NCBI GenBank assembly: GCA_905178155.1
Contig: CAJINV010000003.1
Location: 2,623,065-2,687,064, forward strand
DNA: 64,000 nt
Reading direction: 5' to 3'
From: Amoebophrya sp. A120
Taxonomy: Eukaryota; Protista; Dinoflagellata
In this document: one piece after another, positions 1 through 63,147 of the stretch
How positions within the stretch are numbered: the first letter of the stretch is position 1
Layout: the number at the start of each line of letters is the position of its first letter
Position numbers and translations under genes: made by a program
The notes under the pieces: generated by a model
The model's input: the letters and a program-made list of their open reading frames with translations, nothing else
Told to the model about the DNA's origin: nothing
Database searches by the model: none

Positions 1-3000
1 TGAACGCGCGCCGGAGAACGTCGGCGTACTTCTTCTCGGGCAGGAGAACGAGTTCGGGACACAAATGCCGGATCGAAAACATCAGTAGCGACGGCAAGGT
101 CGGCGTAACCACAGGCGAAAACAGCCCTGTCCCCGGGGCGAGGCGCGCGGACACGGTGTGGGGGGCGTCAGTCTTTTTATCGTCCATGAGGAAATTACTA
201 AAAATATGAGGCGTAGAAGTACTGGTAGAAGCAGGTCCGACGGAGTCGTCGACTCGTTGGGCCTTGGCCGCGAGCAACGTCTCGAGAGTGTGCTGGTCGA
301 GCAGGCGTTCCGTGTGCGGACCTTTGGGTAAGTGGCCAGCAGAGACAAACGCTTGGGTCAACTGCTCAAAGCGGCGCAGCCCCGCTATCTGCAGTTCGTG
401 CGTCTCCAGAACCTCCAGCGGGGGACGCAGATGTGCGATGGGTGTGCGGGTGGGGAGATACTCGTAGCTTTCAAAATACTGCGCTACAACAGCTCGGGCA
501 GCAGCAGCTTCCTGATTGGAGTCGAATGCTGTGCTTCTGGCAGCGGTTGCGGCATGTAGTTCTTGCACTGCGGGCGACTGCTGACGCTTCAACAAAGTTT
601 GTCCGGGCTCGCTGGCTTCGTGTGCTGGTCGTGCGAGATGTTGAAACATTGGGCCTCCGGCCTGCGGCATGCATATTCGCGCAACGTCGTTTTTCAGGGC
701 AACAGTCCAGAAATCGTCGAGGGGGTGCCTGGTCGCCAGTCGTTTCCCGTGGTACAGACTCAAGAAGAAGATGCACCGTGTGTCCAGGGCCTGGTCAACA
801 ACGGGGGTGCGAGGCTCTGTGTCTCCGAATACCCTCACCATTCGCCTTTTCTCCGCGTGTGCGGCCTGAAGAATCGTCCGGTCGAGGTCTTCCGCTTCCA
901 CATCAACGTCGTCTAACTTCGCGCGCGCAGCTGCGACGGCCTTGCGCTCCGAGTCGGCCAGGGCTTGCAACTGTTCTCGCCGCGCCGCAGCGTTGATCAT
1001 CGGGCCCGCCGGGGCAGCAGCTCCGTCGAGATGACCCGTCTCCCCCTCCTCGGCGCTCAAATTTCGACTGTCATCTTCAGAGGGCGCGGACTCTTCATCC
1101 TGCTCGACATCTGCCACATCTTCCGGCAGTGCATCGGCGGCTGAAACTACACCAAGCGCAGCAGCTCTCGACGTCGACCTCCCACCCGTACCTACGGCCA
1201 TAAGCTCGTCGACGCCAGCCTGCGTCGCGGACCCGATTCCGATGCGGCTGGGGGCCGCGTCGCCGAGGATGCCGACCGTCTCCTCCGGCCCCTGCAGCTG
1301 CTCCTCGTAGTACAAAACCGGCGGCGGTGGATCGCGGTAATACAGTAGCGCCGCTGCTGCTGGCGCAGCTGCTGTCGCTGTATTTGCAGCTGCGGCGGGC
1401 ACACTCGTCGGCGGTTCCTCCGCGATTCGCTCCACCTCTCCACCAGGTGCTGACTCCGCGGCCCCAAGAACTACTCCAGGAGCCGCCACGGCTCGACCGC
1501 GCGCTTGCCGTTCCCGAAGGCGGGCAGCGCGCTGCTCTCGCTCTTGTCGCTCTTCCTGCAACAAGGTTTCCGCACGGCAGATGTGCGTGCACTCCTGCAT
1601 GGTGAAGACGCGCTGGCCCTTCTCAATGGCTTCGGCACGCTCGGGGCCAAACAGCATGTTGACGTCCTCGAACCCGCCATCCGGCGCAAGTGCCTCGACC
1701 GCAAAGGCTTTCGAAAACAGGCCCGGAACCGGGAAGGGATTCTCTTCGGAACTGCGCTCCGCGACGAGCGCGTGGTCGGGATTCAGTTCGTCTCCGTCCT
1801 GGCGCAGCTGGCGGCGCTCCCGCTTGGTTTTCGCTAGTCGCGCCGACGCGGAAGCAGCAAACGCTTTTCGGTCACCGTAGGCACCGTGGAGGTCGTCGTC
1901 GTCTTGCGGCGCGTTGTCTTCCCTGATGCGCACCACCTTCGCGGCGTACAAACGCCTGCACACGCGCCCGAAATCAACGGTGCGCGAAAAGATCCCGACT
2001 TTCTCGTACCCCAAAGCGATATTAGTAGAGGCTTTCATCATCTTGCCACGAGGACCCTCCTCCTGCGAGAACTTCTTCGTCCCCAGGCAGGGCGCGAGAA
2101 AAGCGCCCCAGTCGGCCGGTTGAAAATCGAACCCCAGCTCGTACACGTAGTGCGTGAGGGCAATGCAGAACGCCTCGAACTCCTCGGGGGAGCTGCGCTG
2201 TCGCCGGTACCACGCACCGATGGCAGCACCCGTGTGGTAAAGGCAATCCAGGAAACAGCGCAGTACCTGCTCGTCAATGAAGACCGGGAAATGTTCGCCG
2301 CCTTTCGCCGCGCGCAGACTCGCAACGGCCTCGGCCCGGGTTTTGCGCTCGGAGCTGGAGGCCGCGGCCGCCTGGCCGAGCGACTGCTTGGCGCGCGCCC
2401 GCACGAAGTGGTCGTGCGCCGTTTCGCGCGCGTGGAGCAGGCCCGTCGCGATTTCCGCACTCACGTTGGACAAGCCGCGAAACACCAGGCGAAAGAGCTC
2501 CTGCGCGGTCACGTAGGTCCACACCGCGACCTCGTGGTCGTCGGACGTCATGGCAACGATGGCCAACAGCGGTTCCAGCAGTGCTAACTGCTTCAAGTTG
2601 CCCCACTGGAGTAGCAGGTGGGGCACGAAGGCCTCCAGGTTGAAGTAGTTGGTTTTCAGGCTGAGGTGCTGCAGTGTGGCGTGCCGCGCGATCCTATTGA
2701 AAGGAAAAACTCCCCCTCCCCATATTGAAAAGGTATGTTTCCGAAGTTTTGTGTTGCTGATTTGAGGTCACAGATCACATTTGTCTTGCAACAAGACAAG
2801 GGCAGAAGCTTCCGTCCCATTATCGAAGCGGTTTGTCATGCTGTTGGGCCTAAAGGGGAGCCGTTTGCCATGCTGAACAACTAGACCCATACGCCCCGGC
2901 CAGCCTGGGGATCTGGCCGCAATGCCTTCCTGCAGCACAAAGCTGATTTGTGTACACAAATCCAGCATCAGAAATTCCGTTTTGATATGGGGAGGGGGGA

Positions 3001-4834
3001 TTTTTCCTTTCGCTAGAACCAGGAACGGTCGGAGTCGGTCGGGGCCGGGACGTGACTATCAAATGTAAAAATGTCTGGGTCTGGAAAATTCTTACATTTG
3101 TCATGTATATTTTCCATGGCCCATGATGTCTGTGATGCATGCCGTAGCATCACAGATTTTTAGAGCGCTTTGCGATGCCTCTTCCGCATGAGAAACGGCC
3201 TCTCCGCGTAGCACAAACTGGAGTCCTCTTGCTGGTCATGCAATACAAAGTTTTTCAGAATCCAGAGACAGCATTACAAGTTTAGAATGTTCCATTTGAT
3301 AGTGACCGGCTAGGAGCAAGATGCGCACCAAGTGCACGCTCTGCTGCTTGCGTAGCCAGGACGGCTCTCGCTTGCTGAAGTAGAGCAGCCGAAATGCCAA
3401 CTGGAACAGGTCCTGGGGCGGAAAGGCGCGGAACAGCCACGTGCAGAGCTGCAACAAGCTCGTCTCCAGGCGGTCTGCGCAACTCCGTGCCAATGGGGTA
3501 TCAGCACTTAATACTTTCGCGTAGGAGCCGCGCAACTGTCCTCGTCGGTCCATAGAACTGGAAGCAGGATCATTCAAATTTTTCTTTTCTCTCGTCCTCC
3601 CCGGGGACGAGAACGGCAGCAGGCTGCGCTGGTCCAAGATTGCTTCGTTCTTCTCGAGGTCCACAAGAGTTTGCAAAACCTCGTGGACGAAGGCCTTTCC
3701 AACGCGCAGCCGCGTTCCCTGCGGGAATGCCGCGCGGTCCAGAGCGAGCAGGGCAAGTAAGTCGTCCGCCAAAACCAGTTTCCACTGCATCTCCAGGTTC
3801 GGCACCACAAAAAAATTGACCAGCAGGTTCCACATGCGAAACCGCGCCGAGGCGTTCCGATGCCGGCTCTGGGCGATCGTTTCCGTTTGTAGGCCTGAAA
3901 TGCCGTCACCGGAGAGTTTGTACGCCGTGTCAGGCTTCGTGGAAAGAACCGTCGAGGGCGGAGGATGGATTTCGCGTGCTGCCTCGTCGTCGCCACTCGG
4001 CGTGGCTTCTTTGTTCCCGCCATCCGGCGACGTGAAGAGGCCGCGCAGGAAGCTACCGAGGTTGTCCGCGATGTTTTGCGCGACCGAAGTCACTCGCTCG
4101 ACCAGCGTTTCCTCGCGTGGCGGCAAAAACACGCCCGGGGGGTGCTTCTCCCACCGGGACAGCAAGCGGGTGGGTTCCTCGCCCCAGGCGCACCGCACAA
4201 TGGCGGACGCGAGCAAAAAGCACTCCCACAGTAGGGTGCGCGCTATCGGGGAGCCCCTCAGCGCGGCCAGGTTCCAGGAAGCATCCGTCTGGTTATTTGC
4301 GCTAGGTAGTTCTTGTTCCGTGGAAGGATGAAACGCCGCAGCGAAAAAGCCGTCCTCGCGCTCTAGCGTGAGTGAAGCGCGCAGCAGTGGTTGCAGGGTC
4401 GCGAACAAAGTGAGTAAGGCACACTGTGTCAGGGTCTCGCCCGAACGCGGGGGGATGAAACTGAATGCGGAGGCTTCTTGACCGCTCTCCGCAAAAGCCT
4501 GCGTCGCAGGAATGAAGCGTCGCTTCTTCCGGCGGACGTAGTAGTTTTTGGCGACTGTGAACACGTCCAGCGTACACGAAGATGCGGGCTTCGGCGTCGA
4601 ACTTGTCGGAGCGCTGCCGTGTTTTTCTGGCTGCAGTTTCGCGTCCTGGTTCTCGGTGGTTGGTTCGGCATTCCCACGACCTCCGGTTGTCCCGGGAGGA
4701 GCATCTTCGGTGTGTGGCCCAATCAAGCGTCCGGACCAGTTGCGTTCATGCCAAACAATGTCGAGTTTGCCATTGCCCTCTACGTGGGAGGCGCCGTCGG
4801 AGAATATCAGGTTGCGCGCCGCAGCCTTCTGCAC
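1..4834 (-). CDS. Large hypothetical protein (>1400 aa, runs off the left edge), 3 exons split by two introners
   Basis: ORF 3236..4834 joins via micro-exon 3016-3056 to a frame that reads as protein at 2690, ~1200 and position 2 (..LLLAGH|VPAPTDSDRSW|IARHATLQHLSLKTNYF..). Start is uncertain; not every codon of 1-2690 was checked. Confidence 0.75.
2695..3015. mobile_element. Introner, family B (321 bp)
   Basis: TIR tattgaaaggaaaaactccccctccccatat / atatggggaggggggatttttcctttcgcta; TSD gatcc/gaacc; close reverse-complement relative of 36155-36476. Confidence 0.9.
3057..3301. mobile_element. Introner, family A (245 bp), right TIR internally deleted
   Basis: Starts tatcaaatgtaaaaatgtctgggtctggaa and ends ttccatttgata; perfect TSD gtgac; excision restores frame. 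Confidence 0.9.
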
Positions 4835-8210: not shown

Positions 8211-8489
8211 GGATTCCTTGGAACAGTTGCGGCTGGGCAGATTGAAGGCACGGCTGCGCTATGGGCGGGTTCTCAAACGGCACAATCTCAACTGTTACAT
8301 GATTTCATCTCATGCAGAAAGAACAACATCACCATCGCGCTTCACGCGATCAAACTTCTTCTCGTGACAATCTTCCGGCGTGGGCGCGCAAAATAGCATC
8401 AGAATCCGTTCCATATCTGTAGATGCAAACCGCGCAAGGATGTTCCCCTTAGTTTCACTTTCGCTACTAGGTATTCTTGCATCACAGAC

Positions 8490-11400
8490 CTACTTATGTA
8501 ACAGTTGAGAGTGTAACGGGTGAGAGAAGCGCCATAAGGTCCACGGAAGGATTCGGGGCAGCAGGCCGAGACTGAGCTCGAGGATTCGCGCCCGCCGCCA
8601 GCGGTACTGGGCGAAAAACAGTTCCTCCTGCTTTTGCATGCGTTTGTTGCGCTGGCCAAGGGAAAGCCGCCCCGTTTTCCGGTTCACGTGCACCGATTTT
8701 CGCTGGTGGTAGATCTTTTGCAGGTAGTCGTCCACCTTCTTCCAGTGCTGGGACATGTCCCGCAGGTGCGCCAGCGTCAAATTCTGGCGCAGGCCGAACA
8801 CGTACTCCAGATGTCGCGCGTAGTAGTCGTCCTCGCTGAACAACTGCAGGGAGCAGTGGGCCGAAAACCAATAATCAAGCGGCCGCCAGTGGGCGACAAT
8901 TTTGTCTTGTTTCCGCGCTTTGCGGATGTAGTGTTGGTCCAACAGCAAGTCATCGGCGTTGTCTTCCTCGTCCTCCGCGGCATCGTCTGGGAGGAGCTGT
9001 TGTTGCACGTTGTCGGCGAGGGTCGCGGCATTTACCACTTCCGCTTGTCGTTCGGGAGATATCACTTGCGGTGCCGCGTCCTCTCCTTGTGCAATTTTTT
9101 CGTCGGACAGCCCGTCTTTCGGCGAACTCTCAAAGACTGAGACTGCAGTGTTGACAAACGAAGCTAGCTGTCCGAAAAACGAACTCTTCGGCTGTTGTTC
9201 CCCTGCGCCTTCTGGTGCCTCCATACTGTGCTGGCCCTCGAACGTCATGCCGTGCGGTTTCATGTTTAGTTTTCCTTGTTGTCCCTGCTTGGTCGCTGGC
9301 TTTGCATTCAGTTTTCCTTTTCCCTTTGTAGGGGTTCCAGCTCTCTGTTCTGGGGTGCCTTTTTTTGATGTTGGCGACGAAACATTCAGGCGGCCCTTGG
9401 ATGTAGCCTTTTGTGGCGCTGCTTTTGGACTTCCCGGGGCGGAAACCGGTTTTTTACCTTTCTTGCTCTTGCCTTTCTTTTTGCCTTGTTTTCCCTTGCC
9501 TTTCTTGCCCGCGTGTAACTGCAGAAGCTGATTTCCAGCAGCCTGCGCCATAGCAGGGTCTTCTGCACCCTCCAGGGAGGGTTCTCTCACCCCCGCGGTG
9601 ACAGGACCCTCTTTTCCTTTCAGTATGTCTTGCTGCATTTGCTTTCGGCGCTCGCGCGCGCGAATGCGATTTGCCGCGACCTGCTTCTCGTGCTGAAAAT
9701 CTGTTCCCAACTGGTCGGGATGTTCTTCCGTTGTATTCTGGTCGACGATTCCCTGGCCGGGTGCGGTCGGCTCCAAATCGGAATAGTCCGAGGACGACGA
9801 GGACGCTAAAGTTTCACTCCCTACATGAGGCGCCATGCCGGTAGCAGTACTAGCCGTTGATGTTCTTCCTCGTGTTTTCATCTTCCCGGAGGTACTAGGA
9901 GCACGGTCACGGAACCTATTCGGACTATCCGCCTGCTGGGGTGCTTCAATATTTCGCCGTCGCTTTCGCTTGAGGAGCACCGCGTCTGGCACATTTTGCA
10001 GCAAAGAATCCGGGTAGATAGCTCCGAAAGTCTCGCCCTCGCCACCGACAATGTCGGAGATTTGCAGCACCAGCCGCAGAATCGCGGGGCCGAAGACTAC
10101 GCGCTCCAGCTCGAGTTGCTCTCGCAGCAAACGGTCTCGTTGTTCCAGAAGGGTCGGGTCGACGGCTTTTTGCGCGTCTCTATCGATTGAACCCTCCTCC
10201 TCGTCCTTACCGTTCACTGCAGCCTTCATCTCGAACACATCGACACCCTTGGGCACTGGCTTCGATGCCGGTGCCGGCGTAATCCCGAGCGCTTCGTGTC
10301 GTAGACACTCATCGTACAAACGAGTCAGCACGGCCAGCCCATTTTCCAGGTCCCCGGCGCGCAGGTCGCACGATATCAGCAAGCGACGCTTGAGGTTCAC
10401 CGCGATCAAGTTCTTGAGCAGCAACTTGTCGGTGAAGCTGCGCAACACCAATTGCACGTCGTCTAAGCGCTGGTCCTCGAAAGCCGCGGGAAGAGGCCGC
10501 GGGGGCGACGTAAAAGTTGATTCCCGTCCTCCCGTTTTGCTCCGCAGATTCGCCACGTACAGGGCGTGGTGCAGCACGACAACGCACTCGCGGCCGTGTG
10601 CCGTGGGCTGCGCCGGCAAAAATTCGTCCTCCAAGAAGTCCGAAGTAACACGAATGTGTGGGCGGGACAGCAAGAGCAGCGTTTCCCGCCAGCGCTTGAA
10701 CAACAAAAACTTCACCGTGCTGAAGGGCAAGCCAATCGGGCAGTCGAAGTGCGCCATGGAGTGGAGGATCCAGTAGTGCAGCTGGGGCACGTTGATTCGC
10801 AACAAGACGCATAGTTTCGCGAAAAACGGCAGCAGATTCACGGTCGCGCTCGCGTTTCGAATCGCGTCTTGTTCGCTTCGCTCCGGTTGATTTTCCAGGT
10901 CTTTTGCATTCGGGCGTGGAACGAAGTGCCAGATGGAAATTAAAAAAGCAAACTCAGCGAGCTGAGCGATCTTGTGGCAGATTTGCTTAACCCGCTTGCG
11001 TCGCAGGCGACGAAGGACAATCACGATTTGTACGTTCGCATCTGTAGTAGTTCGTGCTCCAGATGGATTTTGTGTCGAATTATCCTGTTGCGGTCCCGAT
11101 GGATCCACCTCGTGGAAAGCGCGAACGGCATCGCGCTGCGCGGTCCGCAGCTCTCGAAGACGCTTGGACTGCTTCTTCGCGATGAGATTCAGTAGCAGCT
11201 GGAATCGTTGTTGCTGAAGCTGTGCCGCCTCTTCTTTTTCTGCGACCGCCTGCATCCAGCCTGCGTCATCGTCCTCTGCGAGTTCCGCACTTTTCACCGT
11301 CCGCTCCTGAAATCGGTCCTCCGACTCTTGTCCGCTGCTGTACTCGTCTTCGTCGCCGGATGACATCTCATCTTCGCCGTTCGCGGGACGAATGGGCTTT

Positions 11401-14099: not shown

Positions 14100-16190
14100 A
14101 ATACTTCGTTGCATGTCATAGACGGATTCCGGAGCGTAGGCGCCTGGTCCTGGAGTTTCTTCCGACCTAAGTTCGTTGTTTTTTCCGCTTTCGTCAAAAC
14201 ATTGGTGTTTGACAGACGGTATACGATGAAAGGGCCGCTAAGTATAAGTTCTACGCATGATCGGCACCTGAAATTTTATTAAACAGGCACTGCATGATAC
14301 CCATTGACTGTGATTGCATTGCGGGATGCAGCAGAAGCAGAAGCAACAGATGTAGAAAAAAAAACGTAGAAAAAGCGGGCCCCGACTGTGGTAGTTTGCG
14401 GCCTGTGCGGGCGATTCGGACGCCCTTTTTGAGGAGCGGATCCTGTGGCACGCGGGGAGAATACGCGGCTGGACCGGGCGTGGCCTCGTTCGCCGCGCCC
14501 ACAAACCGTGGACTTCGGGACCCCAGAAAAGCCGTCGAGTTTACTTTCAAGGTCGATTCTGGGTGTGTTGTATGCATCATGGTGAATAGAAATTGTAAAA
14601 AATATCAACATGAGACCGTAGTTCGTCTATGTTGTGATATCGCTGTCACTCAAGTCGCTTTCTTGTCATTTTATTTTTGTTTTCTTTGAATTTCCAATTC
14701 CATAATAAGTACGTGCGCTCCTGCTCCTGAGCAGAAGAAATCCGACAACTCACAAGTAGAACTAGTACTCAAACAGTTTGCATACACTTACGCGGTGTGT
14801 AGAATTGCGCAGTGGTAGATGCGTGCTCTCGCTTGTTCATCCATGCTATGGTGCGGTTAGCCTTCCCAATCACGCCTCCACCGGTCCGATTGCGTTTGTC
14901 TCCGAATGTTGTGAGTTTTTCGTAGAATCCGGCACCGTTTCCGGCATCTGTTTATACATCATCTCTTGAGATGCGTGCGTTGAAGATTTCATCCAGGATG
15001 AGTGGGCAACTCAGCTGCGCTGGTCTGTCTCTCTTCATCGCCGAAGTGCAAATTCGCCAAGTTAGAGTTTTTTTTTGCGCAAGGTGACAAAAGAACGCTG
15101 AATTTTATTGGGTGAGCAACGCAATCGAGTCGTTCTCGTTCGTGCATGTTGATTAGCCTACGACCCGATTCGGCGTATTCGCTAAAGAATGCTCTCTTTG
15201 TAATCGTACATCTACATACACATAGTACTTGCTTAAGATCGTTATTTATATACCATCCTTCAGCTTTTGCGGCCAGTGTGTTGTGGTGTCGCGAACGGGA
15301 GCGCGTTTCGGACCACCCTTGATACTGACACCACTCGAGGTGGCGGGCCGAAAACTGCTCTTGACGACGTTGTATGGATTGTAAAAATGTCTGGGTCTGG
15401 AAACTTGTGATGCAAGGAAGAGAACAGTGAGCTCACTGAAATGCGCCGCCAAGCATGACAAGTTTTTTGTATGGTTCTGAGTTGCGTATTCCGCATGAGA
15501 AACCGCGTTTTTGCAACACAGGGAGGAGGAGCTCTTTGCGGCCACGCAATACAGAGTTCAGAGTCATGCCAGATTTGCATGACAAGTCTCGCAATCTTCC
15601 AGACCCAGACATTTTTACATTTGATACGTTGTAGGCTCCTGGACCCGGGGTCTCTTCGGGTGCACCAGAAAGCAACTTTGCTGGTTTTTTGTGTTTGATT
15701 CGCCTATCTATCAAAAAGTAGCTCCACAAAACGAGATCAAGATCACAGAGAAAGATGACAGCTAGATCCGATAGAAGTCGCAGAGCGTAAGTTTGTTCGC
15801 TCATCACAGTGAGATGTCCATGTCGGCATAGTACGCATTTGTAAGCCCGAAGAAAATAAACGAAAATTATGCAATACATCTGCTTCCGACGTTCGCCTTT
15901 GGTATGCTTGCGGGCTGTGCCGTACTCAGAGTTGATTTTTGCACTATGAAGTTGGTCTGGGCCGTGGGGGCTTTATCAATCTTGTTTGCACCGTAGAGCC
16001 AAGAGTTGGTATCGCGCGACGCGGTGGGCATTGCATGCCCCTCATGGTACCGGAAGCGGGTCCAGGACATACTTACTCGAAGGTTCTGCCAAGCTTGCAC
16101 GTCTGCCCGAAGTAGGTACCAACGAACAGGACAGCAGAAACAGGGAAGAAACGGTACGGCTGACTTGTTACGGCATTCTTGAGGCAACTA
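14100..16190 (-). CDS. Multi-exon PGPGAY (SHIPPO/ODF3/STPG-type) repeat protein; boundaries approximate, may extend to ~12560
   Basis: Minus-strand motifs TPGPGAYNV (~15640), TPGPAAYSP (~14470), TPGPGAYAP (~14145). Confidence 0.6.
15373..15626. mobile_element. Introner, family A (254 bp)
   Basis: TIR ..gtaaaaatgtctgggtctggaa / ttccagacccagacatttttacatttgata; TSD cgttg; excision gives PGPGAYNV|VKSSF. Confidence 0.9.
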
Positions 16191-16783: not shown

Positions 16784-19700
16784 TTAATAATTTGTCCAGA
16801 TGCGATTCCCCTTCCCACGGACAAAGCGCGGTGCAAATCCAGGCGGGGAGTTGGTCGATGCTTTCGGGTATGCATTGCAAAAGTATCGTACTCGTGATCC
16901 TCATTGCATTTGCAATCTAATCATGCATGACACATCTTCGATCTTAGGTACTTAAATCAGCAGCACGCGTTCTATTTTTTCTTTGGAGAAAATTTGTCAT
17001 ACTTACGACCACTAGGACGATATTTTTGCGATGCGTATTGGAAAGAGCTCCGTTCCCGCGGCAATCATCGGCAAGTTTTCGGCTGGCTCGTGCGCCTCGA
17101 TGAGTTTCGCTTTCGGGAACATTGGACCAAAGATTTTGTCCCGGTGGCGAACTTCCAGTGCATCGTTCTCCAGTAGGCTCCGCAACACCCGCTTCCCACG
17201 GAAAAACTGTTTCACTGTGATGATTTTGCTAGATCTGCATCACAAGTTTGTTACACATGACACTGGAAGTCTGTGATGCGCGCTTTCCAAGGGAAAACAC
17301 GCTTGAAAATCCAATGTGTTGCAGGTGTAGCAAGACAAATAGTTCCGTGTTCCATTTTCTGCATCACAAGTTCACAGTGAAACAGTTTTTTCTTGCGATA
17401 ACCCGGGCCAGCGGCGCGATCCCCAGCCCGAACCGGGCGGACACTCCCATGACGTCGGACCTACAACTCTCGCGGTGTGTGGCAGCAGGAGAACGACCAC
17501 GAGAGGTTTTGTCCTCGCCGGTTGCAGTAGTTGCATCTGTAGTATGTTGTTGAGCAGCAACATCTTCACCATCGACGTTCCCGCCCAGTCTTGCCCCTCC
17601 GAAGCGCGCGCGCCATCGGAAAAAAACGGAATCCAAGTTGTAGAGCGCGTCCTCGTGCAGGCGGTCACACTTGGTGCCCACAATCAGGAAGGGCTTCTCT
17701 GCATTCAAGGGGTCATACCGAATCGCTTCCCGGCGGAGCGTGAGAAACTGCTGGAACGCATCCAGGGCCTCGTGCGAGTAGTGCGCGGGTTCTGCCGTAC
17801 TTCTTGAGAATTGTTCATTTGTCGTCGGCGCAGAGGCGGCAACTTCGGTGACGCCTTGTGCAGCTACCGCCGCGCCGTCAACAAAGCCATCTTCAGTCGT
17901 TACCCCACTTTCATCATCGCGGTCTCCTGCGTCACGATGAGTCTCGGTAGTTTCATCTGAGTCTGAGTCTGTGTCTGTTTCAGATTCATCTCCTTTTTCT
18001 ATCTTTGCGCAATCCACTGTTCTTGCTGTCTTTGTGCTGTCGACGGGGCGACTACTGGTATCGGATTGCGATTGTGGAGACTGCGCCTCGACCTGGCGCT
18101 GCAACGAATCCAATATACTGTTGCGATCTTCTACGCTCAGGTTCTCGTCTCCAGTTACCATGCGCGGCTTTTCTCCTTCACGCAGATGAACCTCTGCACC
18201 ATAGTGAGAAAAGGTGTGGCGTGTTTCCTCTTTTTCGCGGTGATAATGCGGGTCTCGGCACTTCTTCTGTTCACTCAGGATGTTATTTGCAGCACGGTCA
18301 ACATCCAGTGGCTCTCCACTTTCATCTGTGAGCATTTTCAGACCACTACAGTCAGCTGTGTTGTCATCTTCGCTTACTGTTACTGGAAGGGCTTTTGTTA
18401 CGACAGTGTCCTCTGACACGCTTTCACCGCTACAAAAATCTGATGCAGGTACGGCTGGCAGAAGCGGTTGCCGCAGCCTTCGGTTCCTTTCAAGCTCTTC
18501 GCGGATCCGCTTTTATGCAATGCAAAAGCATCGCACTTCTAGTATAAATTGCATTACAAATTAGCCCCCCAGCATTACAAATCAAATTTGTAATGCTGAT
18601 TTACCTTGACAAAGAGATTTGTAATGCATCAATGCAATTACTACGAGTACGATTCTTTTGCACAGGATAGCTTTTCTTGCACAACGACTTCCCCGCGGCG
18701 CAGATAGTCTGCTATTCTTGCGTGAGCAGGGACTGGGTGAACAGATTCATCATCTTCGGTCGACCACAGATCCCCGCAGCTATGGTTTTCTTGTTCAACA
18801 CCCAACAGCTGCGCGCTCTTCGTGGCACCGAATACTGCTGGCAGGTGGGTTGTAGTACTTGAAGAATTACTTATGGCTGTCGGTTTAGTATCAATATTGG
18901 GCTTCCGGGACATGTCGACGACAAACACCAGGACCCGTGCACGGTAGGTGTGACGCAGCACCCGACGACCCTGCTTGGGATGGTCCGCCGCACCGTGCAG
19001 GAGGCCCGGGAGGTCGAGAACTCGCAAGCTGACGCCGTCTTTGAACTTGAGCACACCGGTGTGGGGCCGTGTGGTGGAAAAAGCTTCCGGGCCGATGCGG
19101 GTGTGCGCACGCGTGAGCGCGGCGGCCAGAGCCGTCTTGCCGCTGTTCGGAAAGCCCAGGAGGCAGACGTCGCAGGGCACGCGGTACTCCAGCTCGAGCA
19201 TCCGCTTTTCCCCCTTCGCGCCCTTGCGCCCGTCGTGCAGGCGGAAGTGGCTGGGTCCAATGCCCCCCTTGCCGCCCTTGCAGATGCGAATCTGGTCGCC
19301 GTGCTGCAAAAACTGGTACACGAACTCTGGCAGGTAGACGCGGCGCTTGCCCTCCTCGGTGCGAAAGGGTTCGTTGCTCTCCGGCGCGCGGTACAACTTG
19401 CGCTCGCGCACGATGGTTCCCACCGGTATGGGGGTGTCAGGATTGAAATCGATAAAGTTGAAATAACTTGCAATGCCCAAAATCAATACCAGTTGCAGCC
19501 CAATTCCTAAGCGGCGCATGAGAAATTTCGGCACCGGCTAAATCCAGTTTGTCATGCTCTTTAGGGACAGAAGGCGTCTTTTGTCATGCTACTTTAGCAA
19601 TAGACAATAGACACCCAAAATAGCTCATAGAGCCCTGTCATGCTACTTTAGCAGCTATATCGCAGACCCCAAACAGGCTGACAGTCGGCCTCACTTGCCA

Positions 19701-21207
19701 CCCCTGCAAGAGAGACACTTCATGCCTTGCAATGTATGCATGAGAAATTATTTCAACTTTGTCGGTTTCAATCCTGACACTTCCATAACCGGTACGTGCA
19801 GGGTTTCCGCCTTCTGGTTCCGCCCGCGCTCCGTGTGGTGGCCGCCGCCCCCGCCGTCGCCCCCATTGCGGGCTTTCTTGACCCGGGGCAGCGCGTTCAG
19901 GTTCAACACTGCGCACTATGAGAGTGCACAACTCCCCCTCCCCCTCATTTGTAATGCAAAGATGCCAATAAATCCAGCTGCTGCCTTGTAGCACCGTCTG
20001 CATGACAAATCCTGGAAGCCCAAACAGCACTACACTCCAGTGCAACTTTGTCATGCAAAACCGGCATTCTTGCTGATGTTTGTATTGCTGCTCATGCCAT
20101 GCAAATGTAATGAGGGGGAGGGGGGGTTGTGCACTCTCATACGCGCGTGCACTTGATCCACACGTCGGCGCCGTGGCCGCCGTACGCGGGGCCTCCGTGG
20201 TTCGAGAATTTTCGGTAGGTTCCGGGTTCCGGATTACCGCCGTCCCCGCTGCGAACCGTGATCCACAGCTTATCCACAAAGGTGTCTTGGAAGCGCGGAA
20301 AGGACTCCACCGATGTGTCGGTGAGTCGTTCCATCACCCGACTATTTTCCGTGCTGGCGTTTCTGTCGCAGGCGTCGACGCTTTCAGATTCCGCCACTTC
20401 CGACGCGCCACCAACATCTTCCTGGGCGAAGTCTTTTCCAACAAATTTTTCGTCTTCGTGCGGCACAGTAGTACTTCTTGTAGAAGCTACAACGTTGGTC
20501 GTGCCCTCCAGATAGTTCACTGTCGAGTTCGCATTTTTCCCAACGACCGACGTCGTGGACCGCAGTTGTTCCCTTTCGACGAACTTCTGTCTCTTGACCG
20601 CCCTCTTTTCTTCGGCGGCCTCCTCGATGCGGCGCGCTAGGGTCAGACTTGTGATTTTATCTTCGGTGAAACCATTTCTTCCTTCCGCAATGTCCGCGTG
20701 AAGGGCATGATCTTGTTCTTGTTCGACAGGGTAGCTCGTCGAAAACACATCGTCGCTTGGCGGTACTTGTTTCAAATCAGCCTTATAACCGCCATGCTCG
20801 CGCAGGATTCGGCGAATCCTTTCCTGGAAGCTGTTGTCGGCTACTGTTGACGACGAGGGGGAGCTGCGGCTGTTTTTTTCACCGCTCGTTGGGCCCCCGT
20901 CTTCAGCCTTGAGTGAGTCCGCTTGTAGTTCATGCTCACCCCGTGATCCCGAGAAGCCGCGTACCGAAACTGAGCGACGAGATGCGGGATAATTGAAACA
21001 AGAGGAGACAAATGCAGTAGATTTGACGTTGGCCCGAGCTGCAATGCCGTTGGGGTACCAAGAAACACAGACAGCTGAACCACTACCACGGCCGCGGAAA
21101 AGAACGCAGGTAGTTCCCCGATCAAGACAAGCAAGGACGCCTCCGGTCAGGAGGCTACGCGTCGTCAGTAGAGTGGATGAGGCTACACATGATGACAATT
21201 CTTGCAT
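16784..21207 (-). CDS. Obg-family GTPase (ObgE/MTG2-like, probably organellar), 6 exons split by 5 introners
   Basis: FVDKLWITVRSGDGG, HVPV|GTIVR, GGKGGIG, G1 GFPNSGKT, FSTTRP, G3 DLPG, G4-like TKCD; frame is continuous across all five junctions to stop 16784-16786. Confidence 0.9.
16869..17037. mobile_element. Introner, family C (169 bp, diverged, reverse orientation)
   Basis: TIR tatgcattgcaaaagtatcgtact / aggacgatatttttgcgatgcgta; TSD tcggg/ttgga, both mismatches at synonymous positions (LFP|KAST). Confidence 0.8.
17192..17400. mobile_element. Introner, family I (209 bp)
   Basis: TIR core aaaaactgtttcactgtga / tcacagtgaaacagttttt; TSD acccg; left terminus eroded; excision gives LARV|LRSLL. 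Confidence 0.85.
18514..18669. mobile_element. Introner, family C (156 bp)
   Basis: tatgcaatgcaaaagcatcgcact ... agtacgattcttttgcacaggata; TSD gcttt; excision gives VQEK|RIREE. Confidence 0.9.
19427..19787. mobile_element. Introner, family H (361 bp)
   Basis: ~50-bp TIR tatgg..gtgtcaggattgaaa.cga.aaagttgaaataa; TSD accgg; splits the conserved Obg VPVGT motif. Confidence 0.92.
19917..20141. mobile_element. Introner, family G (225 bp)
   Basis: TIR tatgagagtgcacaac.cccc.tccccctcatt; TSD cgcac/cgcgc; excision restores frame. Confidence 0.9.
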
Positions 21208-46112: not shown

Positions 46113-49100
46113 TCATTGCCGCTTGAGGTAGTTGTTCCAGTCGTCTTTTGCGGACGCCCTATCAAATGCAAATATGTCTGGGTCTGGAAGGATCCAAACT
46201 TGTCATGCTGTTTTTCTACTCTAAAAAAATCTGCATAGCATGACCAGCAAGAGCAGGAGCCCCGATTGTGCTACGCGGAAACGGCATTTGTCATGCGCAA
46301 TAGGCATCAGGATCAGGAAGCCTTCCAAAAATCCGTGATGCTAAGCCATGCACTACAGGCATCGTGGGGCATGTAAAATATGCATGACAAACCTGGCAAT
46401 CTTCCAGACCCAGACATTTTTGCAGTTGGTACACCCCAAGGCGGTACCACTGCGTCGCCGTGGTCTTGAAACCCTTTAACACCGGACAGGCACTGTGGAA
46501 GGAGAGGGACGCGGGGTCCGGATTGTAGGTGAACAGGAGGAGGCTGCCCTCTTTTGGGGTGTACTTGATTCGGTCTTTTGGGAACACGGTGGCGCCCCCG
46601 CGCTCCGGCTCGTTGCAGTACAACAGCGTGGTGCAGACCCGCATGCCCTTCTCCAGCTTCGGCAGGCCGCAGTTGCCGTCGCAGTGCGGGCGGTACTCGT
46701 AGCCCGCCTTGTAGTAGAGCCAGTTGATGGGTTCCTGTCCGGGCGTGTGCACGGGGTACTTGGTGAGCTGCCGAGTGACGTTGAAGAAGCGCAGCCCCAG
46801 TGTCCGCAGCAGCTTCTCTATCGGAATGAAAAATCCCCCTCCCCATATCAAAACGAAACTCTGTGATGCAGATTTGTGGCCACAAATCAGCTTTGTGATG
46901 GTAGAAGGCAAAAGATGCGGACTGTAGTGCTGCCTAAGGTGGAAAAGCCTTGCAGCTCCAGGATGACAGGAGGCAACTGGAAGTGGGAAACAGCATGACA
47001 GATTACCTGCAGTTTAGGCCGCAGCTTCGTCTCTTGGCCTTCGAGCAATACAAGTCGACTTGTGTACTAAAATACAGCATCACAAATTCGCGCATCTTCC
47101 GTTTCCGATATGGGGTGGGGGCTTTTTTCACTTTGATATTCTCGAAGTCGTCCGACAGCGCCGTCTCGTCCTCCACGTACTGGGGGAACATGTTGCGGCT
47201 CAGCGTCTATCAAATGCAAAAGCGTCTGGGTCTGGAAAGTTGGAACTTGTGATGCTAACTCTGGACTCTAAAAAAATCTGTATTGCATGACCAGCAAGAG
47301 GGGCCACGTTTGTGCTACGCGAGGAGGGCATTTGTCTTGCGGAAATGGCATCAGGAAGCCTTCCAAAAATCTGTGATGCTGGGTCATGCATTACATCAAG
47401 CATCATGGGTCATGCCAGACAAGCATGACAAGCCTTGCATTCTTCCAGACCCAGATATTTTTGCATTTGATAGCGTCCGCCGCGCCTTACTGTATCCGCC
47501 CTTGCTGGTCACGCTGGCGCGGGTCAGCTGGCCCGGCCCGCCGCGCGCGATCAGGGGCGCGCACTCGGCGCCGGTACCCTATTCACTGGAAAAAATCACA
47601 TGCCCTCTAGGTCGTGGTCTGCATATAAAGTACGCGCATTGAGGTCATCTTCATCTTCATGCCGAGTCGCGCATGCGCATCACAGCGCGCCGGCCTTCTG
47701 TGCAGCGTGAACAACGCATCGCAAGTGGTTTTTCGGCTGGTAATATATAGTTCGCGATGCGACGCTACTTAGTCTTACCATATCTATTTTGCACACTATT
47801 CCTGAAGTTGTTTGTGTTTCCATCGTCCACTAGCTGCACGACAAAAATGAAACTCACAAATCCTTTTACTGCAGTTCACAGATCCTTGCCGACGTATCCA
47901 CACAACGCATCTTCACAGATCCAGACCGAGACGTACATATTTTCCATGCATATGCCCACATCCTCGACGACAAACACGGACGGGTTTTCCCGCAACACGT
48001 GCACCCGCGCCGTGCGTCCGTCCGGCAGCGTCAAGGGGTCCGCTTCGCGAAGCGGGGTGGTGTCCGGCTGCACATTGCAAAGACGGAAATGCGACACCGA
48101 TTCCCACAGCTGGGGGAACCAGGTTCGCACGAACCCGGGCGGCATTCGAAACCGCGTGTCGGGAACGAGATCGGTAGTTTCGGTGTCATCGAGAGTGGTC
48201 GGTACCCTGCTGCCTTCTTTTGCACTAGTACTACTACCGACGGTTTTATTGGCCACATCGGCCTCGACGTCCTGAGGTACCGCTTGTACTTTCATCGGCA
48301 AGTACATGTTGTCCCCCAAGCATTTGTGAAAGTTCGCCAGGTCGTCCTCGTCGCTGCTAGAGCTCGTGCCTTCCGGGGCGCACTCGTTTGCAACGCCCGT
48401 GTTGGCGAAGAACACTTTCATTTCGTCCTCCATGAAAGTTCCCACACTCTTTCCATCGGGCGCAATGACGAGGAGAAAAAGCTCCCCCGGATAGGAAAAC
48501 TTGTGCTCCAGCAAAGGAGAAGGTGCAGCCACGCCGCCAAACCAACCGGACGAGGAGTCGTCATTTGAAGAGGATTTTTCGATTCCTGTGGACAAGACAA
48601 AAGCCGTGTTCGCGTCGGCCTTTACGCGAACCATACTCAGTGGCGCTTGCTGTGGTAGTCCTTCGGATGCGGGTGCAGCTGCTGTCGGCGCTGGCGGGAT
48701 AGCGAAGCGGACCGATCCCACCTCCGCCACCAGCTCCGCGGGCTGGCTAGCCAAGTTGAACACCACCATCTCGTCTGGCGCGTGGCTGCCCTCAGCGGGT
48801 TTCATCTTGGCAAAATCGCTAGAAGACTTCATCAAAACCGGGAGTCCCTCCGAAACCGCAGCAACCAGCTCCCCCCACTGCTGTCCGGGAATCTCGCTTT
48901 CCAGTTGCGCGATTTGTTGCTCGCTGAGGCAAGAAGAAGAACTTGCCCCAGCAGTCGCTCCATGATCCTCGTTCTGAGCATCTGCGCTGCACTTTGCGGA
49001 CGTGGCCGACGACGAGGATGTTAGTGCCCCGCGGCTGAGAATATCCCGCTTCAGTGCGGAGAAACGGAAGACCTCGGTCACGACCTTTTGCTGCTCGTCC

Positions 49101-55568: not shown

Positions 55569-58364
55569 TCAGTGCGGCGATTGTTGCGTCGCCGGTGAGC
55601 TTGCTATTGACGCCGGAGTCTGCAGAAACCTTGAGAGGATTCTGAAACGCTCCCCGCCCGCTCCTAAGGCACTGCTGGGTCGTTCGCATTGGTATTGCTG
55701 CTCGCCGCTGTTGATATCATCGCCTGCATCCACAACAGGTGCGTCATCCCTGTTCGCTTTCATTTGTGCATTTTCCATCGCATCTTCAGGAGGAGCGGCG
55801 ACAGGAACAGCCGCGTTGCCACCATCCGTAACGTCAGCCACTACTTCTTTTGCGGTAGGTGCGTGCAGTTCATTAGTACCTTGCACTTCTTCATCATCAA
55901 TATCTGGTGAGCGTGTTGTACCGAATCTTCCGTTGGCCTGGTCCAATTCTGTAGCTCTCGTCGAAATCACCTCCTCAGCCGGCCCGTCGCCCTCCATCTT
56001 TTCCAGCTGCCATGCGTCACGTAGGTCAGGCTCCATTTTCGTTCCATGGGACAGCTGCGTGTCCTGTTTCGTACCGCCTTGCGGAACCGGTAGTCCGGGA
56101 TCTTCAGCGGGGGGAAGGTCCAAATCTGTCGTGGGCACGAAGGCCGGACGAGGAGGACCATCTGGGTTAATAATGGACCCTGCTTCTGGTTCTGCGATTG
56201 GCTTCTGCGCGAATGTGAAAGCATACTTCTTTTGCGCGTCCACAATGGGCAGAAACATCATCTGCGCTCCTTTCTCCGAACACGACCTGCGCGGAGACGA
56301 CGGTCGTTGCGCTTGCAGAGCCGGATCAGATTCACACTCTTTCTGTGGACCGGCACAAGAACTACTCACTGTGGCAGCTTCTCCAGTAGTACCGGACATG
56401 ATTGCATTTTTGTCTTCCGCATTCATAATTTCCGCACCGCTTCTTGCATCTACTTGTTCGCGCATCGTCTGCTGCCCCGGCGGATAAGAGGGTCGTGACA
56501 CCATCGAAGGAGATGTGTGCTGCTGTACAAGATATGTACTAGGAGACGCAACTTCTACCGCGCGGTGTGCCCCCACCCCTTTGAACGTCGCTTCGCTACC
56601 ACCGTCGTCGTCGTCGTCGTCCGCGCTATCCTCATGATCTTGCTCAAGTGTAAATGCTGGTCCTTGAAAATGCAGAATTCGGTTTGTTTGCGGAAGACGA
56701 GGGTGTTGCAGGCCGCCTCCTGTTCCCACCGCGTTGCTCACCATTCGAGCGATTGGAGAGTTGGTAGTAGAATCGTGCAGGAGCCGAGCGTTCGTGAAAA
56801 ACCTGTTGCCCTCGCGGCCTCTTTCCAATTCTACATTCATAGGACCACCTCCGCGGCGGTCTGTGGGAGGTAGCCAGAAGTCGCGCAGGCCAAACTGTAA
56901 CTCAGTGGAGGTGTATCAAATGTAAAAATGTCTGGGTCTGGAAGAATGCAACTTGTAATGCGTATTTCAGAACACAGAAAAATCTCTCATGCATACGTAG
57001 CAAAAGCTCCCACCTTTTGTCAGCAAAATAGGGGGCTTGTCATGCGGATTCGGCATTGCGGAAGGTTCTAGAAACCTGTGATGCTAGAGCTTCCATGCCA
57101 GACCTTCTGTGTCATGCAAAAACAGCATGATTCTTCCAGACCCAGACATTTTTACATTTGATAAGGTGAGGGTCCAGCTGTACTTGCCCGTCAAAAGCTG
57201 CAAGAGTCCACGAATGACGAAGTAAATTATGAAGCAGAACAGCGCGGTTTGTTGGTCTTCAAAATGCTGCTCAAGCTTTTCCCTTTGGGCTAAATTCATT
57301 GTGCGCAGCTGTGCCTCCAGCCATCCCGGTGACTTTCTATGCCGCTCCAGCCACTGCGCCGAGTGCGCGAATCGCAGTCGGGGATCGTAGCCATAGACAG
57401 CTTGCCACCGCGTTGCCGTTTTTGTTTTTGCGGCGTTTTGATGTGCAGCTTGACCTTGTTCTGCGCTGCTGTGCTCTCCAGGGGTACGGCCCACGGTATT
57501 ATCATCGCGAACTCCATCTGCATCTTTTCTATTTCTGTTTTCTTCAGCAACCTGAGCTGGGTCGCTTTCTATTGGCCCAAGAAATTTATCGGCGGCGGCC
57601 GTCTGGGGGACTATTTCCCCCACTTCATCAACATCGTGACTCTGACTCACTGGTGTGTGCTGCATTTCTTGTCGCACGAGAGTTGCTGCGCTCGCAGATG
57701 AAAGTCGTTCCGCGGTCTCAGCACCGCGCACTTCCCCCGAATCTTCCGGTTTTTTCTCTGTTCTAACATCACTTTCATCCTGCTCAGGAGCCGTTCCATA
57801 ATCTTCCCCGTTGTCCGCCACCACAACGTAATGAAGAAGCTGCATGACGGGCTCTGCGTCATCAAGTTCTTTGTGCTTCTGGTGCTCCTCTGCGATAGAA
57901 AGCCTGATGAAGGTCAACCCTTCGGACACGTTCGTGTAGGCTGGCTGCATGGTGCTCACCACCAGTTGTAGGTTAAACATGAACCAGCAGCCGCAGATGA
58001 CGAGAGCGAAAAAGTAGCCGAACCACGCGGTGAAGGGGCAGAGGAAGTGATTCAACTCCCGCGGAGTCCTCCGCGGACAGCTCAAAGACCGGTGGCAGGG
58101 CCTAAAAAACGGATCCTGCTGCATGAAGAAAATCCCGCACACGAAGAAGAACAGGTCGAAATGAACGTTGAACAGAAAGTAGTCGGCGCGGAGGAGCAGC
58201 CCAAGCAGCACGCCGGAGAAAGCATACACCAGGACCCCGACCAGCAGCCACCGGACCGTTCGTCGATGCTTTTCCACCGGGTCATGCCCCGCCGGACCAC
58301 GAACAAAAGCGCCCACACACAGCAGACACTGCATCCGGAGTCGCAGACACAATGGGGTCATCAT
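55569..58364 (-). CDS. Hypothetical multi-pass membrane protein, 2 exons
   Basis: ORFs 57084..58364 and 55569..56840 join in frame after introner removal (WTLT|STELQFG); several hydrophobic segments. Confidence 0.75.
56914..57163. mobile_element. Introner, family A (250 bp)
   Basis: Near-perfect ~32-bp TIR; TSD aggtg. Confidence 0.93.
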
Positions 58365-61726: not shown

Positions 61727-63147
61727 CTACTGCCCGGTCATACATTTAACAATTACGAAGAGGACGAAAAACACCACCGCGGTGATTTTGAATCCGTGAG
61801 CAGCCCAGTAGAGCCCCAGAAGCTGCTCGATTATGGCGTTCTCAACTGTTAAACTCTCAACTGTTGCATGATTTGCCATGCAAATTTACCACCAAGAGCG
61901 CCACGATTACGCTGCTTCGCCTTCGCGTGACAAATATCTAAACAGCATCGAAATCCAGATGTGTTACGCAGAAGGCGCAATCTTCCCCCTTTCTTTTCAC
62001 TTTCGCCGCTCTTGCATTACAAATTAGCGCTACAGTTGAGAATGTAACATTGGAGAACGCCATATGGATGTACTCTATGTTCTGTTTCGCGGAAAGTTTG
62101 GATTCCCCGTGCAGCCGCTCCTGGAACATGATTGGCACGTCCTGGACCGAACACCGACAGCGTGCCATGATTTCCAGCCCAATCTTGAACCCGATCGGAT
62201 TAATTTGGTCGATGCCACGCTGCAGCGTGCCTTTCCGCACGCAGAAGAACCCGCTCATGGGATCTCTCGAGCTACACAACCCCCACGCGAGCGCTGTTGC
62301 CCCCAAACCTGTTTTTGAATGCAGTTGTCATATTACATGGGGACCAGAAGCGAAGCGGAAGTATACTGCAAAGAAGGCTTTCCTGCATCTGTATATTGCA
62401 ATTGTTCCAAGTACGTAGCAGTGAGCGACAAGCGCATTACTCAAAACTTGCCGCTTGACGCTCCAATTGAATGCGATGCCACCCTGCTTCATATAGCGGC
62501 AGCCAACTGTGAAATCAACTTTGCGGTCCAGAACCGGGGCCGCTACTGCTGGGACTGACTCTGGCTCGTGTTGCAGATCGGCGTCCATGGCTGTATGTAT
62601 GAGTTGGATGTCGAGGATTGATCTTGGGTTTCCACCATCATTCGGTGTTGTTTTTTACTACATGCGGTGCACGCGGCATGTGCCCGAAACAGATACTACC
62701 TTGTAACGCGATACCAAAGTCAAACAAAAACAAAAAAAGTGCATTAGATCACGAGCAGGATATGTAGTCACAACAGTGAGGTCGTAGAAAGCAAGCCGTG
62801 ACGCGGCACCAGTTGTAGTTACAGTTAGTACATAGCATCACGTCATATTTCGCTTTCTGGAAACCCAGCATGACTGCGGAAGACAAACCCCGTCCCTCTG
62901 ATCGGTAACGCCTGTGAATTCGTATGGGATACTTTTTGGCCGCCAGATCCGTGACCAGTTTCTCCGTCTCCTCTGAGCCAGCCGACTCGTCGTCCACAAG
63001 CAGCAGCTCTGCCGGAAGCTCGGGGAGCTCCTTGCGCAACGTCGCGAACAATCTTTCGCACAATGGCACCACGTTCTCCACCTCGTTGTACGTCGGAATC
63101 ACTACGGAAAGCCCGTTCACAACCGCAACAGAGGAAGAACTCGACAT
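61727..63147 (-). CDS. DPM1: Dolichol-phosphate mannose synthase (yeast-type, C-terminal TM); 2 GT-AG introns + 1 introner
   Basis: LSVVIPTYNEVENV, LLVDDES, GRGLSSAVMLGF, MDADLQHEPE, DPMSGFF, GFKIGLEI, FQERLHGESKL, EYI|QQLLGLYW + TM. Confidence 0.92.
61832..62064. mobile_element. Introner, family F (233 bp)
   Basis: TIR tatggcgttctc.a.tgtta.a.tctcaactgt; TSD tcgat/tggat. Confidence 0.9.

What the first reader, a model, noticed from the sequence alone, without database searches (positions are those of the whole stretch)
2695..62064. One transposon-intron system behind ~11 TIR families: TA(T)...(A)TA ends, invariant 5-bp TSD, exact frame restoration
Seen: 29 clear elements (150-373 bp) fall into ~11 families with dissimilar TIRs. 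All have a 5-bp flanking duplication (21 perfect, 8 with 1-2 mismatches), and nearly all begin TAT and end ATA (a few eroded). Every one lies in a CDS, several within conserved motifs (kinase GxGxxG loop, Obg VPVGT, P4H domain). Removing the element plus exactly one TSD copy restores the protein. No register gives GT-AG for most of them. Established: inverted-repeat introners with short direct repeats and non-canonical ends were reported for Amoebophrya genomes, so their existence is not new; as far as I know the mobilising enzyme and excision mechanism are unresolved. Inference: one transposase clade mobilises all families, and a dedicated, end-structure-guided removal pathway makes the insertions nearly neutral.
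Basis: partly seen in the sequence, partly recalled or inferred. Interest (0 to 1): 0.9.

Follow-up and report, generated by a model that had tools for sequence, protein, structure and literature searches.

The report
Transposon introns cut at fixed register
In the marine parasite Amoebophrya A120, dozens of small transposon-like elements sit inside genes and are cleanly absent from the messenger RNA; the elements were already described, but here the cuts likely fall at one fixed offset from the element ends, which would make their unexplained splicing directly testable.

Summary
The window is Amoebophrya sp. A120. RNA contigs show removal of element plus 5 nt for 19 of the 27 elements in the laid regions; no listed joint disagrees. 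In 545 kb from a related population, 244 of 309 elements have an exact 5-bp repeat, 4 a 4-bp, none a 6-bp one. The elements are the published A120 introners (PMC7789003). Not found in print: where TSD copies differ, five RNA junctions agree on one cut only, N|TAT...ATA-NNNN|. The intron would start one base before the TIR (always U at +2) and end four bases after it. Support is moderate (chance fit to this register 0.039, to any shared register 0.35), backed by a stop codon and two conserved residues. TSDs show no GT or AG enrichment, both orientations are equally common, and a TSD with 2/5 identity is still removed exactly. Best reading: a relaxed spliceosome using the TIR stem as ruler; a non-spliceosomal nuclease-ligase is the main rival. 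No transposase was found, so 'one clade' is unproven.

The parts
2695..3015 (-). TIR element, TSD 1 mismatch; 5' end TAG; only sense GT-AG register in the set
   Evidence: not in a laid region
3057..3301 (-). TIR element, largest family, perfect TSD
   Evidence: not in a laid region
8260..8536 (-). old TIR element, TSD 2 of 5 identical; removal of element+5 joins 1271 and 1054 open codons
   Evidence: homolog keeps Trp-Thr at the junction
15373..15626 (-). TIR element, largest family, perfect TSD
   Evidence: joint not listed
16869..17037 (-). TIR element, TSD 2 mismatches, 5' TAC
   Evidence: joint not listed
17192..17400 (-). TIR element, perfect TSD, eroded 3' end (AAG)
   Evidence: RNA contig piece starts at 17401 (one-sided)
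18514..18669 (-). TIR element in Obg gene, perfect TSD
   Evidence: RNA contig 18508|18670, skip 161
19427..19787 (-). TIR element in Obg motif, perfect TSD
   Evidence: joint not listed
19917..20141 (-). TIR element in Obg domain, TSD 1 mismatch
   Evidence: RNA piece starts at 20142 (one-sided)
21846..22051 (-). TIR element splitting a PIH1_CS domain, perfect TSD
   Evidence: profile 27-60 then 65-100
24534..24842 (-). TIR element in kinase gene, perfect TSD
   Evidence: RNA length accounting 711=711
25236..25392 (-). TIR element splitting Pkinase, perfect TSD
25961..26115 (-). TIR element in kinase GxGxxG loop, perfect TSD
26693..26916 (-). TIR element, perfect TSD
   Evidence: RNA contig 26687|26917, skip 229
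28901..29087 (-). TIR element, TSD mismatch at position 5; limits the cut to 4 or fewer TSD bases
   Evidence: RNA joint 28896>29089; the other register gives TGA
35806..36126 (-). TIR element, perfect TSD
   Evidence: RNA joint 35800>36127
36155..36476 (-). TIR element, perfect TSD, beside a 23-nt exon
   Evidence: RNA joint 36149>36477
37321..37583 (-). TIR element, largest family, perfect TSD
   Evidence: RNA joint 37315>37584
37794..37943 (-). TIR element, perfect TSD, eroded 3' end (ATC)
   Evidence: RNA joint 37788>37944
37998..38259 (-). TIR element, largest family, perfect TSD
   Evidence: RNA joint 37992>38260
38589..38770 (-). old TIR element, TSD 2 of 5 identical, still removed as element+5
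   Evidence: RNA joint 38583>38771 in both runs; fold z -3.4
42039..42248 (-). TIR element, perfect TSD, beside an 11-nt exon
   Evidence: RNA joint 42038>42506 with the 6 unique micro-exon letters between (table 5c)
42265..42505 (-). TIR element, perfect TSD
   Evidence: same joint
42563..42871 (-). TIR element, perfect TSD, 5' TAG
   Evidence: RNA piece starts at 42872 (one-sided)
43657..43918 (-). TIR element, TSD mismatch at position 5; limits the cut to 4 or fewer
   Evidence: RNA contig 43652|43920, skip 267
46160..46431 (-). TIR element in P4H gene, TSD mismatch at position 4; cut at 4 or more
   Evidence: RNA joint 46153>46431; Gly-Val conserved in 7 of 7 aligned proteins; fold z -6.2
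46819..47138 (-). TIR element in P4H gene, perfect TSD
   Evidence: RNA joint 46813>47139
47208..47472 (-). TIR element in P4H gene, perfect TSD
   Evidence: RNA joint 47201>47472
47580..47952 (-). TIR element in P4H gene, TSD mismatch at position 4; cut at 4 or 5
   Evidence: RNA joint 47574>47953, run X3 only
56914..57163 (-). TIR element, largest family, perfect TSD
   Evidence: 408+446 open codons; not in a laid region
61832..62064 (.). TIR element, TSD 1 mismatch; host strand uncertain
   Evidence: not in a laid region

Best explanation
These are short TIR elements with TA ends and 5-bp flanking repeats that are removed exactly from the mRNA, likely spread in trans by integrase-type DDE transposases and likely cut out by a relaxed major spliceosome at one fixed offset from the TIR ends. 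Shown: TIRs, TA ends, uniform 5-bp duplication, removal of element plus 5 nt in RNA. Inferred from mismatched TSDs (about 0.7): the 5' exon keeps four bases of the upstream TSD copy, so the intron reads N-TAT...ATA-NNNN. Inferred (about 0.5): the long TIR stem brings the ends together in place of U1, which was not detected in this strain; the TIR supplies U+2 and A+3 of the donor; G+1 and the AG acceptor, which read each other in the yeast active site, are both ignored; the acceptor is set by distance. Predicted: the branch is the first A of the terminal ATA, 7 nt before the 3' cut. Inferred (about 0.45): the mobilisers are IS3/integrase-like, one clade with several TIR specificities.
For: RNA removal for 19 of 27 elements in the laid regions, in the same contigs as GT-AG introns. 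The allowed registers at five mismatched junctions overlap only at 4. The alternative at 28901 is a stop in a 744+659-codon frame. Conserved Gly-Val at 46160 needs 4 or more; conserved Trp-Thr at 8260 needs 3 or more. In related loci the A/T-bearing TSD copy is the one predicted intronic at 20 of 28 mismatches (p 0.036). 4 of the 5 canonical donors seen read GTA, matching NTA. The nine commonest A120 motifs in Table S4 of PMC7789003 all have T at +2, and the nine A25 ones are all TT. U2, U4, U5, U6 and 83 of 89 spliceosome proteins were found in A120, U1 was not. In the yeast P complex G-1 pairs with G+1, while U+2 pairs with U6. TA..TA ends are the IS3EU/GingerRoot signature; an A120 TIR introner with an integrase-like ORF is reported.
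Against: Only five two-sided informative junctions, from two runs of one study; random registers would fit some common register 35% of the time. The 20/28 test is post hoc and assumes AT-biased decay; by hand count, register 5 scores 18/28 and register 3 15/28. No enrichment of G at +1 (30%) or AG at the end (22 of 258), which a partly relaxed spliceosome might still favour. No G-U excess in the stems. The 5'/3' asymmetry of the terminal base was 2 vs 10 in one detection (p 0.04) but 3 vs 6 in another (p 0.5). U+2 is forced by the TIR, so it may be coincidence. Table S4 depends on the aligner and lists CT-AC, the reverse of GT-AG. No lariat, knock-down or transposase was observed. The TSD is 5 bp, not the usual 6 bp of IS3EU.
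Confidence: 0.45

Rival explanations
1. Same fixed cut, but made by a non-spliceosomal, structure-guided endonuclease and ligase that reads the end of the TIR stem, as proposed for euglenid nonconventional introns.
For: No GT or AG preference; no orientation bias in the largest family (52 vs 53); strong hairpins; exons of 11 and 23 nt handled; U1 not detected; euglenid TIR introns leave as circles (review PMC11282704).
Against: The cut keeps U+2 and A+3 as canonical donors do; no G-U versus A-C signal; TIR-bearing non-canonical introns of Fritillaria are spliceosomal; no candidate enzyme was looked for.
Confidence: 0.3
2. Removal is exact in length, but the cut can slide within the TSD from site to site; the apparent single register is chance.
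For: Some common register arises by chance in 35% of draws; PMC7789003 calls the splice sites variable relative to the hairpin.
Against: All five junctions, one one-sided junction, a stop codon and two conserved residues fit register 4 with no editing; 38589 is cut at element+5 with only two matching TSD bases.
Confidence: 0.17
3. The elements are excised from DNA in the transcribing stage, like TA-bounded ciliate IESs, so the mRNA never contained them.
For: TA ends; both groups are alveolates (IES end features are recalled, from no call).
Against: DNA-type run X1 holds the elements in place: one contig covers 8100-15399 unchanged across the 8260 element and others run into TIRs. Element sequence is abundant in the RNA-type runs. 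Only one DNA run was laid and its joint table was cut.
Confidence: 0.05
4. The junctions are reverse-transcriptase template switches across hairpins with short direct repeats.
For: Hairpin plus direct repeat is the usual setting for this artefact (recalled).
Against: Retention would break 30 of 31 reading frames, including kinase, Obg and P4H domains; 38589 is skipped exactly with a 2/5 TSD; elements sit in RPB1 of the related population.
Confidence: 0.03

Closest known systems
Amoebophrya A120 introner elements (Farhat et al. 2021, PMC7789003)
   Same: Same strain; IR ends starting TAT plus an A-run, direct repeats of 3-5 nt with a 5-bp example, RNA-seq support, 29,850 copies in 1,954 families.
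   Different: The paper gives variable repeat length and unknown or variable borders. Here the repeat is uniformly 5 bp and the cut likely has one register. Its figures could not be seen.
A120 introner families of Gozashti et al. 2025 (PMC12130899), incl. family 38
   Same: Mostly TIR DNA elements of unknown superfamily; family 38 has TIRs and an integrase-like ORF.
   Different: Their automated TSD calls range from 2 to 6 bp in the 32 of 58 rows I read, and families are assigned to several TE classes; the one manual call is 5 bp.
IS3EU/GingerRoot DNA transposons (PMC10045372)
   Same: TA..TA termini, TIRs, integrase-related transposase class.
   Different: Usually 6-bp TSD; 0 of 309 here. No transposase in hand.
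Euglenid nonconventional introns (review PMC11282704)
   Same: TIR stem joins the ends, non-canonical borders, TSD-like repeats, MITE origin proposed, mechanism open.
   Different: Pairing starts at +4 and -6 with CAG/CTG and a pyrimidine|purine border; here the TIR would start at +2 and end at -5, and the border bases are free.
Fritillaria borealis MITE-derived non-canonical introns (review PMC11282704)
   Same: TIR and TSD, non-canonical ends, species-specific sites.
   Different: Those have preferred AG-AC and AG-AT ends and were tied to the spliceosome; here the first and last two bases are unconstrained.

Membership tests
Amoebophrya A120 introner element | Located in the A120 genome | tested here: met
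   Exon 100% identical to a named A120 protein
Amoebophrya A120 introner element | Inverted repeats at both ends and a 3-5 nt direct repeat at the borders | tested here: met
Amoebophrya A120 introner element | IR starts TAT, 7 variable bases, then 3 or more A | tested here: met
   TAT in 13 of 13 multi-copy families, A-run in 9 of 13
Amoebophrya A120 introner element | Repeated and removed from RNA at non-canonical borders | tested here: met
MITE (non-autonomous TIR transposon) | Short, TIRs, constant TSD, many copies | tested here: met
MITE (non-autonomous TIR transposon) | Autonomous partner with the same termini | tested here: inconclusive
   None in 545 kb; 150 of 301 ORFs scanned; no genome held
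IS3EU/GingerRoot | TA..TA termini | tested here: met
   217 of 240 exact 5-bp repeats flank TA..TA
IS3EU/GingerRoot | 6-bp TSD | tested here: not met
   0 of 309 at 6 bp, 244 at 5 bp
IS3EU/GingerRoot | IS3-like DDD/E transposase | not testable with these tools
   No autonomous copy in hand
Ginger2/TDD | 4- or 5-bp TSD | tested here: met
Ginger2/TDD | TG..CA termini (recalled) | tested here: not met
   TA..TA
U2-type spliceosomal intron | GT donor and AG acceptor | tested here: not met
   At register 4: GT in 11 of 31, AG in 3 of 31, both in none
U2-type spliceosomal intron | U at +2 | tested here: met
   31 of 31 if register 4 holds; forced by the TIR
U2-type spliceosomal intron | Lariat with branch A; dependence on U2/U6 | not testable with these tools
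   Only assembled contigs of the host strain were available
Euglenid nonconventional intron | Terminal stem from TIRs | tested here: met
Euglenid nonconventional intron | CAG/CTG at +4/-6 and pyrimidine|purine borders | tested here: not met
Euglenid nonconventional intron | Excised as full-length circle | not testable with these tools
   Needs RNase R or back-splice reads
Ciliate-type IES | Absent from the transcribed DNA | tested here: inconclusive
   One DNA-type run holds the elements in place; life stage unknown

The most novel reading that the evidence does not exclude
A120 has a splicing route that ignores G+1 and the AG acceptor entirely and uses a transposon's terminal stem as a ruler, cutting 1 nt before and 4 nt after the TIRs of any of about 2,000 families in either orientation. 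Every insertion by one 5-bp-TSD, TA-ended integrase-type transposon clade would then be born as a perfect intron. This would be either the most relaxed spliceosome known (branch at the TIR's own A, no U1) or a second nuclear splicing system.
Probability: 0.35. Interest if true: 0.85.

Novelty: already known. Interest (0 to 1): 0.5.

Why it matters
How Amoebophrya removes tens of thousands of non-canonical introns has been open since 2021, partly because the borders were thought variable. One register turns this into sharp predictions: exact intron ends, a candidate branch A 7 nt from the 3' cut, and which bases may mutate freely. It would also correct intron annotation for this genome, and the uniform TA ends with a 5-bp TSD narrow the search for the missing transposase.

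Tried and rejected
No whole genome was held, so no genome-wide scan. The TIR core had 0 matches in viral contigs. No exon of the window matched the 148 metagenome loci, so no empty alleles could be compared. Eleven longer TA-ended candidates (457-6,197 bp) showed no obvious transposase; several appear nested or composite. Pfam on 150 of 301 ORFs of 170 aa or more found host genes only. Adding DNA run X1 filled the joint table with repeat cross-matches, so joints for 8260, 15373, 16869, 19427 and 21846 were not listed; 6 joints were also cut. Two protein searches for spliced products found nothing. The SNF2 junction in L014 lay in a variable position and said nothing on the register. The stop-codon test in the loci gave one convincing case (L028:4431, register 3 or more) among 8 rows. 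G-U excess, orientation bias and GT/AG enrichment were all negative. The terminal asymmetry did not repeat. The strand classifier was right for 14 of 16 RNA-checked elements. 59421-59642 was rejected as an element. Three look-ups of earlier findings returned nothing.
Full report
Identity. An exon at 46432-46818 is 100% identical to a named Amoebophrya sp. A120 protein. No whole genome was held. I used the window, public runs and 148 metagenome loci (545 kb, overlapping in part) fetched with a 20-base TIR core. These come from a related population: 26 of the 31 candidates then on my list had matches there.

The observation. A TIR scan, self-comparison, RNA joints and reading of the kinase gene gave 31 elements of 150-373 bp. 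TSDs: 21 perfect, 7 with one mismatch, 1 with two, 2 with three. In transcript orientation all 31 start TA and 29 end ATA. One has a sense GT-AG register. Pfam domains are split at elements: Pkinase 41-90 then 100-212, PIH1_CS 27-60 then 65-100, GTP1_OBG 1-47 then 100-153. Retention would disrupt 30 of 31 frames.

The TSD is uniform. Among 420 TIR pairs found in the loci without assuming ends, 240 exact 5-bp repeats lay on the TIR diagonal against 16 expected off it; 217 flanked TA..TA. Anchoring on inner TIR sequence, 244 of 309 elements had an exact flanking repeat of 5, 4 of 4, none of 6; 29 and 8 matched at 2 and 3, lengths that arise by chance. All 13 multi-copy families share it. Removing element plus 5 leaves longer open frames than plus 4 or plus 6 (210 elements, p below 1e-12). 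The sample is biased to the family used as bait (165 of about 350 elements). Published automated TSD calls for A120 range from 2 to 6 bp in the 32 of 58 rows I read (PMC12130899 supplement 8).

RNA. Runs X3 and X5 are labelled RNA by guess, but they skip GT-AG introns; both are from one study. Of 15 joints listed (6 more were cut), 4 are canonical and 11 skip an element plus exactly 5 nt. Two more elements are removed around an 11-nt exon (table 5c), three are shown by adjoining contig pieces, and three by exact length accounting, 711 = 711. That is 19 of the 27 elements in the laid regions; 3 more are one-sided, 5 were not listed, and 4 lay outside. No listed RNA joint used another site. DNA-type run X1 holds the elements in place, with summed depth of up to 1e5 on element bins against about 28 on unique DNA (not a copy number).

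The cut register. Where the two TSD copies differ, the RNA shows which was kept. Counting bases of the upstream copy left in the 5' exon, 28901 and 43657 allow 4 or fewer, 46160 allows 4-6, 47580 4-5 and 38589 3-5. Only 4 fits all; 19917 (one-sided) needs 2 or more. Random registers would fit 4 with probability 0.039, and some common value with 0.35, so this alone is modest. Further support: register 5 at 28901 gives TGA in a 744+659-codon frame; register 4 or more at 46160 gives the Gly-Val conserved in 7 of 7 aligned proteins; register 3 or more at 8260 gives the Trp-Thr kept in a homolog. In the loci the A/T-bearing copy is the predicted intronic one at 20 of 28 mismatches (p 0.036, post hoc). 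The intron would read N-TAT...ATA-NNNN.

What the machinery ignores. TSD composition is flat across the five positions: G at the predicted +1 in 30%, AG at the predicted end in 22 of 258. The largest family lies 52 sense to 53 antisense. A TSD with 2 of 5 identity is still removed exactly (38589), so repeat identity is not needed. Two elements folded give long stems (z -6.2 and -3.4) whose outer 7-11 bases are open; across elements pairing is 95-97% at positions 1-3, 45-79% at 4-8 and mostly 83-97% from 9 to 22. G-U and A-C mismatches are equal (264 vs 268), so there is no sign of fine selection on RNA pairing. A 5'-over-3' conservation of the terminal base appeared in one detection (2 vs 10) and not in another (3 vs 6).

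Mechanism. I favour a relaxed major spliceosome. The register keeps U+2 and A+3, and 4 of 5 canonical donors here read GTA. In the yeast P complex G-1 pairs with G+1 and A-2 with the branch A, while U+2 pairs with U6 (bioRxiv 10.1101/212811, passages), so losing G+1 and AG together while keeping U+2 is coherent. A120 has U2, U4, U5, U6 and most proteins, with U1 undetected. The branch at the first A of the terminal ATA is a prediction only. A nuclease-ligase route like that suggested for euglenids is nearly as compatible. For mobilisation, TA..TA ends match IS3EU/GingerRoot, whose TSD is usually 6 bp (PMC10045372, passages), and an A120 TIR introner has an integrase-like ORF (PMC12130899, passages). 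I found no transposase. Nine of 13 families share an A-run at 11-13 and four do not, which suggests more than one specificity.

What is known. PMC7789003 (sections 10, 11, 12, 16, supplement legends and part 3) describes these elements in this strain: TAT starts, 3-5 nt repeats, a 5-bp example, RNA support, borders called variable or unknown, and no transposase in A120. [quoted passage not shown] Its figures 3 and S19-S25 could not be seen and may already show a 5-bp peak. I also read section 6 of review PMC11282704 and passages of PMC11453091. Five searches showed no paper stating a fixed register; most subscription journals are outside the library, and Roy et al. 2023 and Henriet et al. 2019 were seen only as cited.

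Verdict. Real, RNA-confirmed and already described as a system. The uniform 5-bp TSD and the probable single cut register are additions that make the open splicing question testable. Interest 0.5.

Noticed in passing
window 42249-42259 and 36127-36149: Exons of 11 and 23 nt between adjacent elements are kept exactly in RNA contigs.
   Followed up: yes
L071-L073: The RPB1 gene region of the related population carries several elements, and a 972-bp TA-ended element with perfect TIRs lies at L071:6014-6985.
   Followed up: partly
L018:505-1608: A 1,104-bp, GC-rich TA-ended element with a perfect 5-bp TSD and internal simple repeats; its longest ORF has no Pfam match.
   Followed up: partly
L064:4991-6021: A 1,031-bp element of the largest family appears to contain other elements, so insertion is not limited to exons.
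   Followed up: no
window 15593-15626: Raw RNA run X9 has about 100 reads that match only the TIR end of the largest family and run on into foreign sequence: an element end retained in a transcript elsewhere.
   Followed up: no
window 59421-59642, 59685-59780, 61039-61512: A 32-bp inverted repeat without TSD next to dispersed and tandem repeats of another kind.
   Followed up: partly
whole window: Nearly all recognisable genes lie on the minus strand, and self-comparison shows no decayed element copies between genes or in canonical introns.
   Followed up: no
window 51149-54946: A 1,266-codon minus-strand ORF with a bVLRF1 release-factor domain and VATC (Vms1-like), free of elements.
   Followed up: no
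L015:1-1080: A C-5 cytosine DNA methylase domain in the related population.
   Followed up: no
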